From IMG/VR virus record IMGVR_UViG_2917408641_000002, positions 1-44,997 of that record: a stretch of DNA of 44,997 nucleotides; one strand, written 5' to 3'. Shown piece after piece: positions 16,758 to 22,700 of the stretch. Positions within the stretch are counted from its first letter, which is position 1. The number at the start of each line of letters is the position of its first letter. The position numbers were made by a program. The stretch comes from a virus (lineage: Duplodnaviria > Heunggongvirae > Uroviricota > Caudoviricetes).

Positions 16758-19700
16758 ACCCGCTCCAGCAGAGGACGATAGATACTAGGTTGCGTTAGGC
16801 ACTGACACATTTTATGTGGGGCGTTTTTCCTGACTCCTTACCACATCCTGTTCTGTAATGAATATTATTTATTACAGCGCCAGTGCTATTTTTTTACAAT
16901 AGTGGAATGATGCATTATCGGTGGAGATTTTGTATTTCCTGGCAGGTTCGGTGATGCATCATCCCGATGTTGTAAACATCGCTAAACGTGACATTGAGAT
17001 TAATCATATACTAATCAAAATCTGGTAATACATCCTTAACCGCCGTGCCAGGCGGTTTTTTTTATTCTCAATTCGAAAAAAAGAAAACACGGACACCGAT
17101 AATGTCCGTGCGGCAATGCCATGTAAGTCAGCGATGAATATGGCGCAAAAAAAGGGCGCGGCTGTCGGATTAAAGCCGCGGGACAAAGTCCATGAAGAAT
17201 CATAAGTATCTGTCTCCTCCAGGAGACGAGTTGATATTACTAAGCTTTAAAAATGGTTTAAATCCTCAGATTAACCTTAATTGTAAGCGGCTCGTCAGAA
17301 CCGTATTGATATTTACTGAGAGCTCAGATCAACTTTCCAGGGCAACAGATCGCGTACCCGGTTTGCCGGCCAGTCCTGGATATGTTCAATGACGTAACGC
17401 AGCCACTTTTCTGGCTCCACATTGTTCAGACGGCATGTGCCGATCAGCGAGTACAACACCGCCGCATGTTCACCACCGCTGTCGGAACCCGCGAACATCC
17501 AGTTTTTCCGGCCTACGGCCACTCCCCGTAAGGCGTTCTCTGCGATGTTGTTGTCGATTTCCACCCAGCCATTACTGCAGTACACGTTCAGTGCATCCCA
17601 CTGTTTCAGCAGGTATGCGAACGCTTTTGCCGTATCTGAGTGACGCGACAGTGTTTTCATCTGTTGCTGTATCCAGTCATACAGTGACTGCATCAGTGGC
17701 GCGGCTCTGGCTTTTCTTGCCGCCAGACGCTGTTCTGCTGAACAGCCCCGGACCTCTGCCTCGATAGCATACAGTTCACCGATACGCTGCAGGGCTTCCG
17801 TGGTGATGTCGGTGGGCGCTCTTGCATGCACATCGTGGATTTTTCTCCGGGCATGAGCCATACACGCGGCTTCCGTTATTCTGCCGGATTCGTATAACAC
17901 CCGGTAACCACCGTAAGCATCGGCCTGAAGCACACCGCTGTAACCGGCCAGGTGATTTTGTGGATGGATACCTTTCCGGTCCGGACTGTACGCGAACCAG
18001 ACCGCCGGGGGCATCTGTGAACCGGCGTTGCGGTCATCACGGACGTAGACCCACAGCCGGGCTGTCCGGGTTTTACCGCTGCCCGGCTCCTGGACCGGGA
18101 CGGGGATATCATCGGCATGGACTTTACCGGGCATCAGCACATACTGGCGCAGGACGTCATACAGCGGCTCCAGCAGTTCAGCAACGGCACCGGTCCAGCG
18201 CCCCAGTGTGGCACGGCTCAGCTCCACTCCCTGACGACGGTATATTTCTGACTGGCGGTATAACGGCAGATGGTCTGCATATTTCCCGGTGACAACATGG
18301 GCCAGAAGCCCCGCTCCGGCATAACTGCGTGCAATGGGTTTTGAAGGTACTGGTGCCTGCACGATATGGTCGCACCGGCAACAGGCCAGTTTCGGACGTT
18401 GTGTTTCGATAACCTTAAAGGCGCTGCTGATAAGCTCCAGTTGCTCTGACACATCACATCCCAGAGAACTGAGTTCACCACCACAGGCAGGACAGCATTC
18501 CTCTTCCGGCCGGATAACCCGGGTTTCACGGGGAAGTGAGGCCGGTAACGGTTTACGGGCTGAAGACTGGCGCAGGGCGGATGGCAGTACCGGGTCATAT
18601 TGCTCACCCAGCGTTTCCGCCATTTCTTCCTGAAGTGCGCTGATTCGCTCCTGAGCTTCCTGTATCTGCCGTTCGGTTTTTGCACGAAGTTTTTCTGAGC
18701 TTTTACCGAACTGCATACGTTGCAGTTTCGCAACCAGCGCCTTCAGCCGGTTGATTTCGGAAGCATAAGCCGCCACCCGCTGTGAGAGCAGGCGGTTGTA
18801 TTCAGCCATCTGGCGGATGGTGTCCTGTTGCGTCTGCAACAGTGCCCGCAGGCGGGCGTTCTCATGAGCAAGTGAGGTGTCCATATCCTCACTTTACAAC
18901 GGGTTATATGCGGATTCCAGCGCGTTCCGTTCGTTTCGGGTGCTTCCAGTTGATACCTTCAGGAAGCATGGATAACTGAGCCGGAGTAAGGTGCACCTTG
19001 CCGTCACGGGTGACTGGCCAGACGAAGCGGCCCCGCTCCAGGCGTTTGGTGAAGAGGCACAGTCCGTCACTGTCAGCCCACAACACTTTTATCTGGTCAC
19101 CCCGGCGTCCGCGGAAGATGAACAGGTGTCCGGAGAACGGGTCATCCTTCAGGACGTTCTGAACTTTTGATGCCAGGCCGTTAAAGCCATTCCGCATGTC
19201 GGTGATACCGGCAACCAGCCAGATACGCGAACCGGCAGGGAGAGATATCATCAGTGGCTGCTCCCTTTTATTTCGCGGATAAGTGTCTGTAATAACGCCG
19301 GCGTCAGTTTACCTTTAAGCCTGAGAGTTCCGGCCGGCAGAACCAGCTCACAACACAGACTGTCGGACGGTGTATTTATCTGCTCTGGTTCCTGTGCGGG
19401 GGCCGGGATTTTATTATCCGGCTCCGGCGTTAACGTCACGGGAAGCAGTGCCGGCATATTTTTTCCGGAAGGCAGCAGGCCACCTTTCCGGTATTGATGG
19501 CGCCAGTTGAAGAGCAGGTTATCGTTGATTCCGTTTTCCCGGGCGATCTGCGCCACACAGGCTCCGGGCTGCAGTGACTGCTCCACTAAGGCGATTTTAA
19601 ACTCATAAGGGAAGTTGGGCCGCCGGGGACGTTTTTTTACCACGGGGGCTTCGGATATAACGGTGCTTTCAGGACGTACGACTGGTACCGTGGAAAATTG

Positions 19701-22700
19701 TCCGTAAAGGCAGGCATCAAGTTCCTGCTCCGACATGCCTGCGGGCAAAGGCCACGAAAGGCCAGCTCTCCGAAAGCGCACGAACATACTACAAACTGTT
19801 GATTTTGGTACACCCAGGCGACGCCCGGCCACAACCCGGGGTAAATGTTCTTCAAAGTGAAGACGTAAAGCTTCAGTGATCCAGGTCCGGTGTTTCATAC
19901 GATAGTGTCCATTAAAAATGATGGACATTATTTTTGTAGAGCCGGAGGAAACAGACCAGACGGTTTAAATGAGCCGGTTACCCTTAATTTCAGGTAAGTC
20001 TTATTTCATTTCTTTGCGCCACGCCCGGCGCACATCAAAAACCACAGAGCCTTTCAGGGGTGAGCTTACGGGATGGTCAGTGTGACTTTCTCTGTGGGCT
20101 GGTCACCCCCGGGCGGAGGCTCACCCACTAAAAGGAAAAGTCACGATGTTTGGTATTTTCAAAAAGAAAACCCGCAAGGCCATTACTGAAGTAAAGAAAA
20201 TGGAGAACCGCGATGCGGTGGAGGCGACCGTCTGGGGTGCGTATTCCATTGCATACGCTGACGGCACCTGTGACGCGAAAGAAATCGCGGTACTGGAGAA
20301 AACCATTGCAGCACTTCCTGCCTTTGCGCCGTTCTCCGGTGAGATTGCACAAATGAGTGCAAATATCCGCGCCCGTTATGAAGCGTCGCCGCGCTCTGCC
20401 AATGCTGAAGCCCTTCGCCAGCTGGCTGATGTTGCCGGTACTGATGACGCAGTTAATGTGCTGTGCCTGTGTCTGGATATCGCTGACCAGGATGGCATTG
20501 ATCCGGATGAAGAAGCACAGCTCAAGAAAATTGCTCAGGCGCTTCAGCTACCGCTGGAGCAGTACCTGTGAAAAGTGCGCGCCTTGTGCTGGCTGCCATC
20601 CTGCTGTTTCTGGTAGTGGCGGTGGATTTCACCGGACGGCTGATGTCGGTGCTGGCAGATGGTGTGCTGGTGGCGATGGCGCTGGTCGTGCTCCGGCCTT
20701 TACTGCGCAAATCTGAATAACACCACACAAAAGGCATCTGCGGGTGCCTTTGACGGGGTGTTTTTTACGGGCCGCTGGTGGCCCTTTTTTATTTACAGGA
20801 GAAAAAAGTATGTCTGAACCCTTATCCGGTTCCGGCACGGCTGCGGCGCTCGGCGGGGCGACGGTATTCGGGCTGTTTACCGGAACGGATTTCGGGATTG
20901 TGTTTGGTGCGTTCGCCGGGGCGTTATTTGTGGCAACAATGCCGCAGGCGCTTTCAGCCTGGCGTGTGGCGGCGCATTTTCTGGTGTCGTTCATTATCGG
21001 TGTGCTGGGCGCAGAGGTTCTGGCATCCTGGCTGGTAAAGCATACAGGGTTTGACGGAGCGCCTGTCGACGCATTGTGTGCAGTGCTGGTGTCAGTGGTG
21101 TCGGTGAAGATTCTGTCGTTCATCCACCAGCAGGATATCGCATCACTGGTGTCCGGTCTGTTCTCCCGCCTGAGGGGCGGAGGAGGCGGTAATGTTAAAT
21201 GACCTTCCCGGATTGCTGAATGTGGCGTTATGCACGGTTATCGTGCTGACGCTCTTTTTTTATCGTCGTCGTGATTCCAGACATAAACCGCTGATGTCAT
21301 GGCTGGCCTGGCTGCTGATGCTGCTTTATGCCTTTGCACCACTCAGCTATCTGTGCGGTCGCCCGTTAGCGGCGAACTGGCTGGCGGTGGGGCTTAATCT
21401 GCTGTTCTGCGTGCTGGTGATTCGCGCACGCGGGAACGTTTCAAAAATCCTTTCATTCCGGAGGTGAGCATGTCGGGTAAATTCAGATTCAGTCGTCGTA
21501 GCGAAAAAAATCTGGAGGGCGTCAAACCACAGCTGGTTGCCGTTGTTCGCCGTGCGCTGGAGCTGACGGAGGTTGATTTCGGTATTACGGAAGGCCTGCG
21601 CACGAAGGAACGCCAGAAACAGCTGGTTGCTGAAGGAAAAAGCCAGACCATGAACAGCCGCCACCTGACCGGTGATGCGGTGGATGTTGTGGCCTACATT
21701 GGCAGCCAGGTATCATGGGACTGGCCTCTGTACGAGAAAATCGCGCAGGCATTTAAGCGGGCTGCCGCAGAGCTGGGAACTGCCATCGAATGGGGCGGCG
21801 ACTGGAAAACACTGAAAGACGGGCCTCACTTTCAGTTGAAACGCTGATAACCAGGTGGGTTATGAGCAGAAAACACTGGACACACAGAATGCCGCGAACG
21901 GCGGCGAAATGGGCGCTGGTAGCGATACTGGTGCCTTTTTTATTGGTGGGATGCGTCAGCCTGGATAAGGCGCGCCAGCTTTTCGACACAGCTTCTCAGG
22001 TCTGTGAAATTGTCGACGGTGTTCGGCAGTGTCTGCAGAACTGCTCACTGACATCCCGCATCTATATTTAAGAGGGTAGATTAATGAAGAAGAAAAAGAA
22101 TCTAAATAAAAAAGATGCTGCATCAGCAAATGCAATAGCTGGCACTCAACTTAATTTAGAATGGTTCGAGAAGGTAAATTCTGAATTGTTGGCGCTGTTT
22201 GATAAGACGTGAAATTGCCGGAAGGCGCAGTTATTACTGAGTAACAGGCATTACAGCAGCCCTTCTGTGTGAGGGGCTGCGATAATGCTGTTGGCCTGAA
22301 TATCTCCATTGAAAACAGGAGGCGAAATGTCTGAGCGAAACTATGAAGCGATTGGACGCTGCGTTGTTCTGCGAAAGCGTATTGAAGAAAATCTTTGCGC
22401 GCTGCAAAAAATAAAATCGGAAATTGTTTCTGCTGATTCTCCATTTTTATTGGATGGGCGGTTGTGTGGGAGTCATTCACTGGTGCTGAGCATAGAAACG
22501 AATGCAAATCGCTGCCGTGAATTGCTTGATGAAACAATGCAGCTTGTCAGTGAACATAATCAGTACGCTGTGGCGGCGGGACTGAATGCAATACATGTTA
22601 TCCCCGAGAGAGAAACGTTTTAATCGCTGGAGAATGAAATTCCATGCCATCACGAATCCCCCGCGCATGCCGTAAGCGAGGCTGCGCAGGCACCACGACA

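What the first reader, a model, noticed from the sequence alone, without database searches (positions are those of the whole stretch)
17275..19988. IS66-family element with 8-bp CCTTAATT duplication inserted between the tRNA cluster and the lysis genes
Clean termini and a perfect 8-bp direct repeat show a simple transposition into the intergenic region that, in toxin-converting lambdoid phages, carries the toxin genes. Nothing resembling stx is present here. The IS separates the late promoter and tRNAs from the lysis cassette by 2.7 kb and may affect late transcription.
Basis: partly seen in the sequence, partly recalled or inferred. Interest (0 to 1): 0.5.

Follow-up and report, generated by a model that had tools for sequence, protein, structure and literature searches.

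The report
Ordinary ISCro1 insertion in a prophage
This is an intact copy of the well-known insertion sequence ISCro1 that jumped into a non-coding spot of a phiP27-like prophage of Escherichia marmotae, at the position where the related phage phiP27 carries its Shiga toxin genes; it is real but ordinary.

Summary
A 2,699-bp IS66-family element lies at 17283-19981. It has imperfect terminal inverted repeats (17 of 22 bases) and intact tnpA, tnpB and tnpC genes on the minus strand. It is ISCro1: 99.6% identical to copies that RefSeq annotates as ISCro1, and of the published length of 2,699 bp. Related E. coli prophages have the uninterrupted site with a single CCTTAATT.

The window is 100% identical over the 20,960 bases compared to CP025979.1, the Escherichia marmotae HT073016 chromosome. 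The genome paper for that strain already lists 24 ISCro1 copies. Sibling copies in the same chromosome are 99.07-100% identical and have their own 8-bp duplications. The same junctions occur in at least three other assemblies.

The host element is a phiP27-like prophage without stx. The IS sits in the slot between the tRNAs and the lysis genes, where phiP27 carries stx2e. It lies downstream of a PR'/tR'-like late promoter region and 165 bp upstream of a terB-like gene.

Any effect on late transcription is untested. An 86-nt deletion that fuses rusA to Q, in the same prophage, may matter more. Verdict: known element, low interest.

The parts
17275..17282 (.). Target-site duplication, left copy (CCTTAATT)
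   Evidence: It is a single copy in the empty sites L001 and L002.
17283..19981 (-). ISCro1 (IS66 family), 2,699 bp, complete, with its genes on the minus strand
   Evidence: It is 99.6% identical over 1-2699 to copies annotated as ISCro1. Siblings in CP025979.1 are 99.07-100% identical. The published length is 2,699 bp.
17283..17304 (.). Terminal inverted repeat at the tnpC end (GTAAGCGGCTCGTCAGAACCGT)
   Evidence: 17 of 22 bases match the other end.
17313..18884 (-). tnpC, DDE transposase, 523 aa, intact
   Evidence: PF03050 at 2.4e-103, plus zf-IS66, LZ_Tnp_IS66 and DDE_Tnp_IS66_C. NF033517. The identical protein is encoded at 10 or more places in the same chromosome.
18904..19251 (-). tnpB, IS66 accessory protein, 115 aa. 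Its ATG overlaps the tnpA stop (TGATG).
   Evidence: PF05717 at 5.2e-39. NF033819. The overlap was read.
19251..19928 (-). tnpA, IS66 accessory HTH protein, 225 aa
   Evidence: NF038385 at 1.1e-88. PF01527. It has the same length as the RefSeq ISCro1 tnpA.
19960..19981 (.). Terminal inverted repeat at the tnpA end (reverse complement GTAACCGGCTCATTTAAACCGT)
19982..19989 (.). Target-site duplication, right copy (CCTTAATT)
14428..15387 (+). Context: rusA-Q fusion ORF (319 aa) made by an 86-nt deletion
   Evidence: Pfam RusA over residues 8-98 and Phage_antiter_Q over 95-310. Alignment with the separate rusA and Q genes of L004 and L006.
15371..15472 (+). Context: PR'-like promoter (TTGCAA-17-TATATT) and tR'-like intrinsic terminator directly after Q
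   Evidence: The region is conserved in L004 and L006. There is a weak isrK hit, E = 0.14.
16458..16767 (+). Context: cluster of four tRNA genes (CAT, Lys-TTT, Thr-TGT, Gly-TCC)
17038..17111 (.). Context: pair of terminator-like hairpins in the pre-existing non-coding region upstream of the insertion
   Evidence: The region 17020-17282 folds with a z-score of -5.0.
20146..20571 (+). Context: terB-like gene, which starts 165 bp after the IS end
   Evidence: PF05099. RefSeq annotates the homologues as 'tellurite resistance TerB family protein'.
20810..21847 (+). Context: lysis cassette of two holins and an M15 endolysin
   Evidence: PF16931, PF05449 and PF13539.

Best explanation
The feature is one complete and apparently functional copy of the IS66-family insertion sequence ISCro1. 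It transposed by the ordinary DDE-transposase route, with staggered cuts 8 bp apart in the target followed by repair that duplicated CCTTAATT.

The target was a non-coding stretch of a phiP27-like, stx-negative prophage in the Escherichia marmotae HT073016 chromosome. The insertion disrupts no gene. It lies inside the late transcription unit: downstream of Q, the PR'/tR'-like region and the tRNAs, and upstream of terB, the holins and the endolysin. The IS genes are antisense to late transcription. It belongs to a recent burst of ISCro1 in this genome, and several related isolates share the insertion.

Inferred, not shown: late transcription is driven by a Q-modified, terminator-resistant RNA polymerase, which already has to pass the terminator hairpins at 17038-17111. 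For that reason the extra 2.7 kb is expected to delay or weaken lysis-gene expression rather than abolish it. In the lysogen the site is transcriptionally quiet, so the insertion costs the host nothing.
For: - **Structure:** ends, inverted repeats, duplication and three-gene layout with the TGATG overlap of tnpA and tnpB.
- **Identity:** 99.6% to RefSeq-annotated ISCro1, with identical gene lengths. The literature gives ISCro1 as 2,699 bp, IS66 family, with an 8-bp duplication.
- **Empty sites:** a single CCTTAATT in related prophages.
- **Source:** the window is 100% identical to CP025979.1 over the 20,960 bases compared, which is E. marmotae HT073016 with 19 chromosomal and 5 plasmid ISCro1 copies.
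- **Recent burst:** ten places in that chromosome encode the identical TnpC. Copies are 99.07-100% identical, and six of the seven other complete copies have their own perfect 8-bp duplication.
- **Shared insertion:** the same left junction is in KN714377.1. The same right junction is in three further contigs from other assemblies, with 99.9-100% identical flanks.
- **Typical target:** a logo from 53 independent junctions shows a weak preference for T at -6 and -5 and A/T at -3, which CCTTAATT fits. TTAA occurs in 7 of 53 duplications against 0-2 in control 8-mers.
- **Context:** phiP27 synteny and the stx2e slot. Q, the promoter-like site and the terminators.
Against: Nothing contradicts the identification. 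The functional part is unsupported by data.

- No expression or induction data exist here.
- Consensus terminator-like sites occur inside the IS on the plus strand, for example at 19384-19407.
- ISCro1 placed between a promoter region and afaA lowered transcription about 2.5 log2-fold in E. coli ST131, although that promoter has no antitermination.
- Q itself is fused to a RusA fragment, so Q-dependent read-through may not operate in this prophage at all.
Confidence: 0.96

Rival explanations
1. The insertion is strongly polar. It uncouples terB, the holins and the endolysin, and possibly the downstream packaging and structural genes, from the late promoter. The prophage then cannot lyse or form particles, and the IS helps lock the prophage and its ipaH-like effector gene into the chromosome.
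For: The IS lies between the PR'/tR'-like region and all late genes. ISCro1 reduced downstream transcription in another setting. A second lesion on the same pathway, the rusA-Q fusion, is shared by the same lineage. The insertion is stably inherited in several assemblies. With the IS the prophage is 44,997 bp, which is 105.7% of phiP27's 42,575 bp, so cos packaging could also be strained. That last point is an inference.
Against: Q-type antitermination normally overrides intrinsic and Rho-dependent terminators (established knowledge of lambdoid phages). The pre-insertion sequence already contains terminator hairpins that the late transcript must pass. The structural genes look intact in the ORF list. 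There are no expression data.
Confidence: 0.3
2. The element did not transpose into this site. It arrived by homologous recombination between IS copies, or as part of a larger composite segment that brought terB with it.
For: One sibling copy in the same chromosome (L078) has non-matching 8-mers at its two ends, so recombination between ISCro1 copies does occur in this genome. ISCro1-mediated plasmid fusion by homologous recombination has been reported.
Against: This copy has identical 8-bp flanks. Its flanks on both sides are contiguous in IS-free prophages that already carry terB.
Confidence: 0.02
3. The repeat is coincidental, or the junctions are an assembly artefact.
For: None beyond the general fact that multi-copy IS elements confuse short-read assemblies.
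Against: The chance probability is about 1.5e-5 and the 8-mer occurs only at the two junctions. Both junctions are seen independently at contig ends of other assemblies. CP025979.1 is a closed chromosome.
Confidence: 0.01

Closest known systems
ISCro1 (IS66 family; named from Citrobacter rodentium ICC168; widespread in E. coli chromosomes and plasmids)
   Same: The length is 2,699 bp. The tnpA (225 aa), tnpB (115 aa) and tnpC (523 aa) layout is identical. It is 99.6% identical in nucleotides to annotated copies and makes an 8-bp duplication.
   Different: It differs at 12 bases from the nearest E. coli copy. One of these is G instead of A at base 8 of the tnpC-side end, a variant also seen in Escherichia sp. 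MOD1-EC7003, a Citrobacter sp. and E. albertii. There are four amino-acid differences across the three proteins. No ISfinder reference sequence could be compared directly.
IS679 and IS66 (prototype IS66-family elements; Han et al. 2001 J Bacteriol, cited from memory)
   Same: Three consecutive genes with a tnpA/tnpB overlap, a short gap before tnpC, ends that start with GTAA, and 8-bp duplications.
   Different: They are different elements and were not compared here. IS679 is listed separately from ISCro1 in the C. rodentium IS census.
Stx2e phage phiP27 (NC_003356 / AJ298298)
   Same: About 70% of the window aligns at 94-96% identity. This covers the integrase, replication genes, holins, M15 endolysin, HNH and P27-type terminase, head and tail genes. 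The order tRNAs, cargo slot, holins is the same.
   Different: The window has no stx2e. Window 14431-20626 is a different module: rusA-Q fusion of the PF06323 type, a 260-aa membrane ORF, four tRNAs, terB and DUF3927. The window also carries ISCro1 and a 767-aa ipaH-family gene near its right end.
IS66-family elements in other lambdoid or Stx prophages (ISEc8 in Stx2 phage 1717 and others; ISCro1 in E. coli prophages HCP5S3_I2, 504239 and YZ_2_1)
   Same: These are independent IS66-family insertions in late regions of lambdoid prophages. ISCro1 is found inside terB about 200 bp downstream of this site (duplication CAAGGCCA), after the M15 endolysin, and directly after the tRNA-Arg genes.
   Different: The insertion points and host prophages differ. 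None shares this junction.

Membership tests
IS66 family insertion sequence | DDE transposase TnpC with the IS66-type catalytic domain | tested here: met
   PF03050 at 2.4e-103 (345.9 bits; cut-off 23.1), plus the zf-IS66, LZ and C-terminal domains. NF033517 at 478.9 bits (cut-off 180).
IS66 family insertion sequence | Accessory genes tnpA and tnpB upstream of tnpC, with tnpA and tnpB overlapping | tested here: met
   NF038385 and NF033819 score above their cut-offs. The stop and start overlap as TGATG at 19249-19253, and a 19-nt gap precedes tnpC.
IS66 family insertion sequence | Imperfect terminal inverted repeats of about 20-30 bp that begin with GTAA | tested here: met
   GTAAGCGGCTCGTCAGAACCGT against GTAACCGGCTCATTTAAACCGT, 17 of 22 bases.
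IS66 family insertion sequence | 8-bp target-site duplication | tested here: met
   CCTTAATT on both sides and single in empty sites. Sibling and E. coli copies also have 8-bp duplications.
ISCro1 (same element, by ISfinder's rule of more than 95% nucleotide identity) | Near-identity over the full length to the reference ISCro1 | tested here: met
   99.6% over 2,699 of 2,699 bases to copies that RefSeq labels 'IS66-like element ISCro1 family'. The length equals the published 2,699 bp. The ISfinder reference itself was not available.
ISCro1 | Transposition activity of this particular copy | not testable with these tools
   All three ORFs are intact and the TnpC is identical to that of nine or more sibling copies. 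Activity was not measured.
Stx-converting phage | stxA and stxB genes between the tRNAs and the lysis genes | tested here: not met
   tblastn with phiP27 StxA2e and StxB2e gives a best E-value of 0.18. The slot holds non-coding DNA, ISCro1, terB and DUF3927.
phiP27-like prophage | Collinear nucleotide similarity to phiP27 across the early, lysis, packaging and tail modules | tested here: met
   Coverage is 70% and 68% of the two halves of the window at 94.3% and 96.3% identity.

The most novel reading that the evidence does not exclude
The IS insertion in the late-operon leader and the rusA-Q fusion deletion, both shared by several E. marmotae isolates, may be the first steps that immobilise a still nearly complete phiP27-like prophage carrying an ipaH-family type III effector gene. 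That would be an early stage of the process that left Shigella's chromosomal ipaH genes next to phage genes. It would explain why the insertion is retained, and it would make the prophage a natural intermediate for studying how effector-carrying phages become domesticated.
Probability: 0.15. Interest if true: 0.35.

Novelty: already known. Interest (0 to 1): 0.12.

Why it matters
It matters little in itself. ISCro1 is a catalogued element, and the genome paper for this strain already counts its 24 copies.

The useful results are practical:
- The coordinates are corrected: IS 17283-19981, duplication ending at 19989.
- The source is identified as E. marmotae HT073016.
- The host element is recognised as a stx-negative phiP27 relative whose toxin slot holds terB and the IS.
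- The copy belongs to a recent, apparently still active ISCro1 expansion.

If the IS, or the nearby rusA-Q fusion, blocks late gene expression, it would bear on whether this ipaH-carrying prophage can still be induced and spread.

Tried and rejected
1. **Same junction in species-representative genomes.** A search with a 40-mer found nothing. The source was found instead by exact look-up of the rusA-Q fusion protein.
2. **Orientation bias.** In all six ISCro1 insertions examined in prophages or phage records (the window, L004, L006, L007, PPwrbA_EC3734 and GER2), the IS genes run antisense to the phage genes. In 41 independent junctions from other genomes, the adjacent gene reads towards the IS end in 8 cases and away in 10 (p = 0.81), with 23 intergenic or ambiguous. 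I rejected this as a general property.
3. **Flank resembling the IS end.** GGTTTAAAT lies at the same distance from both copies of the duplication (family D2). Positions -28 to -20 carry no information in the 53-site logo, so I treat the match as chance.
4. **Known RNA families around the site.** Only the tRNAs reach their thresholds. There is a weak isrK hit at the PR'/tR'-like region and nothing at the insertion site.
5. **Regulatory RNA in the terB leader (19990-20150).** The fold z-score is only -1.6.
6. **Outward-reading promoter at the IS end facing terB.** The consensus scan found none.
7. **stx remnants.** None were found.
8. **Other IS-related DNA in the window.** None was found.
9. 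**Look-up of the junction-spanning 66-aa ORF.** It returned only the closed genome, because draft assemblies break at the IS.
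Full report
**Observation.** The plus strand reads ...CAGATTAA CCTTAATT | GTAAGCGGCTCGTCAG... at 17275-17282 | 17283. It reads ...GAGCCGGTTAC | CCTTAATT TCAGG... at 19981 | 19982-19989. The element is therefore 17283-19981 (2,699 bp). The ends are imperfect inverted repeats, 17 of 22 bases. CCTTAATT occurs only twice in the window, both times at the IS ends. The IS boundaries are fixed independently, because other copies align over exactly 1-2699. With the boundaries fixed, a chance 8/8 match has probability about 1.5e-5.

**Anatomy.** Three genes lie on the minus strand.
- tnpA (19251-19928, 225 aa) is an HTH protein and matches the NCBIfam IS66 TnpA model.
- tnpB (18904-19251, 115 aa) matches PF05717.
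- tnpC (17313-18884, 523 aa) matches PF03050 at 2.4e-103, with the IS66 zinc-finger, leucine-zipper and C-terminal domains.

The tnpA stop and the tnpB start overlap as TGATG. Nineteen nucleotides separate tnpB from tnpC. All three frames are open and have the lengths annotated for ISCro1 in RefSeq.

**Identity.** Megablast against complete E. coli genomes finds the element in 3,037 of 5,426 genomes. The best full-length hits are 99.4-99.6% identical and are annotated 'IS66-like element ISCro1 family transposase' with tnpA and tnpB. The nearest copy, on plasmid pU90-5, differs at 12 bases and four amino acids. The literature gives ISCro1 as a 2,699-bp IS66-family element that makes an 8-bp duplication (PMC12115866; PMC6650469). 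It was first noted as the most expanded IS of Citrobacter rodentium ICC168 (PMC3072379).

**Empty sites.** I joined 500 bp from each flank, keeping one CCTTAATT, and searched with the result. It aligns as a single piece at up to 93% identity to prophages in 22 E. coli genomes. In strains C311 and 504838 the junction region is base-for-base identical and carries a single CCTTAATT. Those IS-free prophages already contain the downstream terB, DUF3927, holin, holin and M15 endolysin genes. The IS therefore did not bring these genes in.

**Source and population.**
- Exact look-up of the unusual rusA-Q fusion protein led to CP025979.1, to which the window is 100% identical over the 20,960 bases compared.
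- PMC6650469 identifies CP025979-CP025981 as Escherichia marmotae HT073016. Its Table 2 lists ISCro1 (2,699 bp, IS66) with 19 chromosomal and 5 plasmid copies.
- Ten places in that chromosome encode the identical TnpC.
- The copies are 99.07-100% identical to this one, and six of the seven other complete copies have their own perfect 8-bp duplications.
- Several siblings carry small indels or an IS4 inserted in tnpA, whereas this copy is intact.
- The same left junction lies at the end of contig KN714377.1. The same right junction lies at the start of contigs in GCA_012294685.1, GCA_000807695.3 and a Logan assembly, with flanks 99.9-100% identical.

The insertion is therefore real and inherited within a lineage. 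It is part of a recent ISCro1 burst.

**Target choice.** I collected 53 independent junctions, mostly from Escherichia sp. MOD1-EC7003, which carries a very large ISCro1 expansion. They give a weak logo within the duplicated 8 bp: G at -8, T at -6 and -5, and A/T at -3. TTAA is present in 7 of 53 duplications against 0-2 in control 8-mers. CCTTAATT fits this preference. More than half of the sites with enough flank are intergenic or ambiguous.

**Context.**
- The window is essentially one prophage. It runs from the integrase (1-1314, minus strand) to the tail fibres and an ipaH-family gene, and it aligns with Stx2e phage phiP27 over about 70% of its length at 94-96% identity.
- In phiP27 the order is methylase, ileZ, argO, stxA2e, stxB2e, L27, holin, holin, endolysin.
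- In the window, phiP27 17321-18972 is replaced by 16611-20626. This stretch holds two further tRNAs, about 500 bp of highly structured non-coding DNA with terminator hairpins, the IS, terB and DUF3927.
- No stx-like sequence is present.
- Upstream, window 14431-16440 is also non-phiP27. It holds a RusA/Q ORF, followed at once by a promoter-like site (TTGCAA-17-TATATT, 15371-15399) and an intrinsic terminator (15453-15472). This is the classical PR'/tR' arrangement, conserved in related prophages. A 260-aa membrane ORF and the tRNAs follow.

**How it works.** The insertion event itself, DDE transposition with an 8-bp staggered target cut, is shown as far as sequence can show it. The consequence is inferred. 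Late transcription in lambdoid phages is carried by Q-modified, terminator-resistant RNA polymerase. That polymerase already has to pass the hairpins at 17038-17111. A further 2.7 kb of antisense IS is therefore more likely to delay or dampen expression of terB and the lysis genes than to abolish it. Three points argue the other way:
- ISCro1 lowered downstream transcription when inserted upstream of afaA in ST131.
- Terminator-like sites exist inside the IS.
- Q itself is altered in this prophage.

On the last point, an 86-nt deletion between short repeats fuses RusA residues 1 to about 96 to Q, which loses its first 8 residues. All RefSeq E. coli relatives keep the two genes separate. With the IS the prophage is 44,997 bp, which is 105.7% of phiP27's length, so cos packaging might also be strained. 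That is an inference.

**Comparison and novelty.** The feature passes every sequence-testable criterion of the IS66 family and of ISCro1. It is one of the 24 copies already counted in the published genome. IS66-family elements in lambdoid and Stx prophages are common. ISEc8 is annotated in Stx2 phage 1717 and others. ISCro1 itself has inserted independently in terB, after the endolysin and directly after the tRNAs of other E. coli prophages. This is an already known kind of feature, correctly read by the first stage, and of low interest. The one reading with some novelty is that the IS and the rusA-Q fusion mark the early domestication of an ipaH-carrying phiP27-like prophage. The evidence does not exclude it, but it is untested.

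Noticed in passing
window 14428-15387 (+): rusA and Q are fused into one 319-aa ORF by an 86-nt deletion between short direct repeats (TTGTGCG.G..CAGCTC). RusA loses its C-terminus and Q loses its first 8 residues. Related E. coli prophages keep the two genes separate, and the exact fusion protein is found in 5 contigs: the closed chromosome and four contigs of other assemblies. This may impair late-gene activation more than the IS does.
   Followed up: partly
window 41731-44034 (-): A 767-aa LRR plus NEL (IpaH/SspH2/SlrP-type) type III effector E3 ligase gene lies near the right end of the phiP27-like prophage. It is probably one of the two chromosomal ipaH-like genes reported for E. marmotae HT073016, but the genome paper never uses the word 'prophage'. 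Only its C-terminal part matches the ipaHd gene of enteroinvasive E. coli (94% identity over 38% of the query).
   Followed up: partly
L078 (CP025979.1 2612109-2618680): This sibling ISCro1 copy is 100% identical to the window copy but is flanked by different 8-mers (TTTTCACA and CCAGTATG). That suggests an IS-mediated rearrangement or deletion at that locus.
   Followed up: no
L008-L060 (Escherichia sp. MOD1-EC7003, NZ_PTRE01): This draft genome has about 50 contig ends that stop in ISCro1, and an IS contig at about 50 times the typical coverage. That is a far larger ISCro1 expansion than in E. marmotae or C. rodentium.
   Followed up: partly
phage records, e.g. FM180578.1 55375-55479: About 39 Stx1, Stx2 and Stx2c phage records carry a 105-bp remnant of the tnpC-side end of ISCro1 at about 95-96% identity, near one end of the phage genome.
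   Followed up: no
window 17020-17282 (+): The non-coding stretch just upstream of the insertion is unusually structured: RNA fold -80.6 kcal/mol, z-score -5.0, with back-to-back terminator-like hairpins on both strands. It is conserved in the IS-free prophages.
   Followed up: partly
window 15549-16331 (+): A 260-aa predicted membrane protein sits between the tR'-like terminator and the tRNA cluster. A direct Pfam scan of the 260-aa ORF found nothing, but precomputed hits list PF27470 (TfpB) for the 237-aa gene call. It looks like a cargo gene in the late leader.
   Followed up: no
window 16458-16533 (+): ARAGORN calls the first tRNA Met (anticodon CAT). RefSeq and phiP27 annotate a tRNA-Ile (ileZ type) at the first position of the corresponding clusters in related prophages, so it is probably a lysidine-modified tRNA-Ile.
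   Followed up: no
L081 5001-7699 and L082 5001-7286: In phage records PPwrbA_EC3734 and GER2, ISCro1 interrupts structural or large virion protein genes (phrog_511 and phrog_616). These deposited 'phage' genomes are therefore probably defective prophages.
   Followed up: partly
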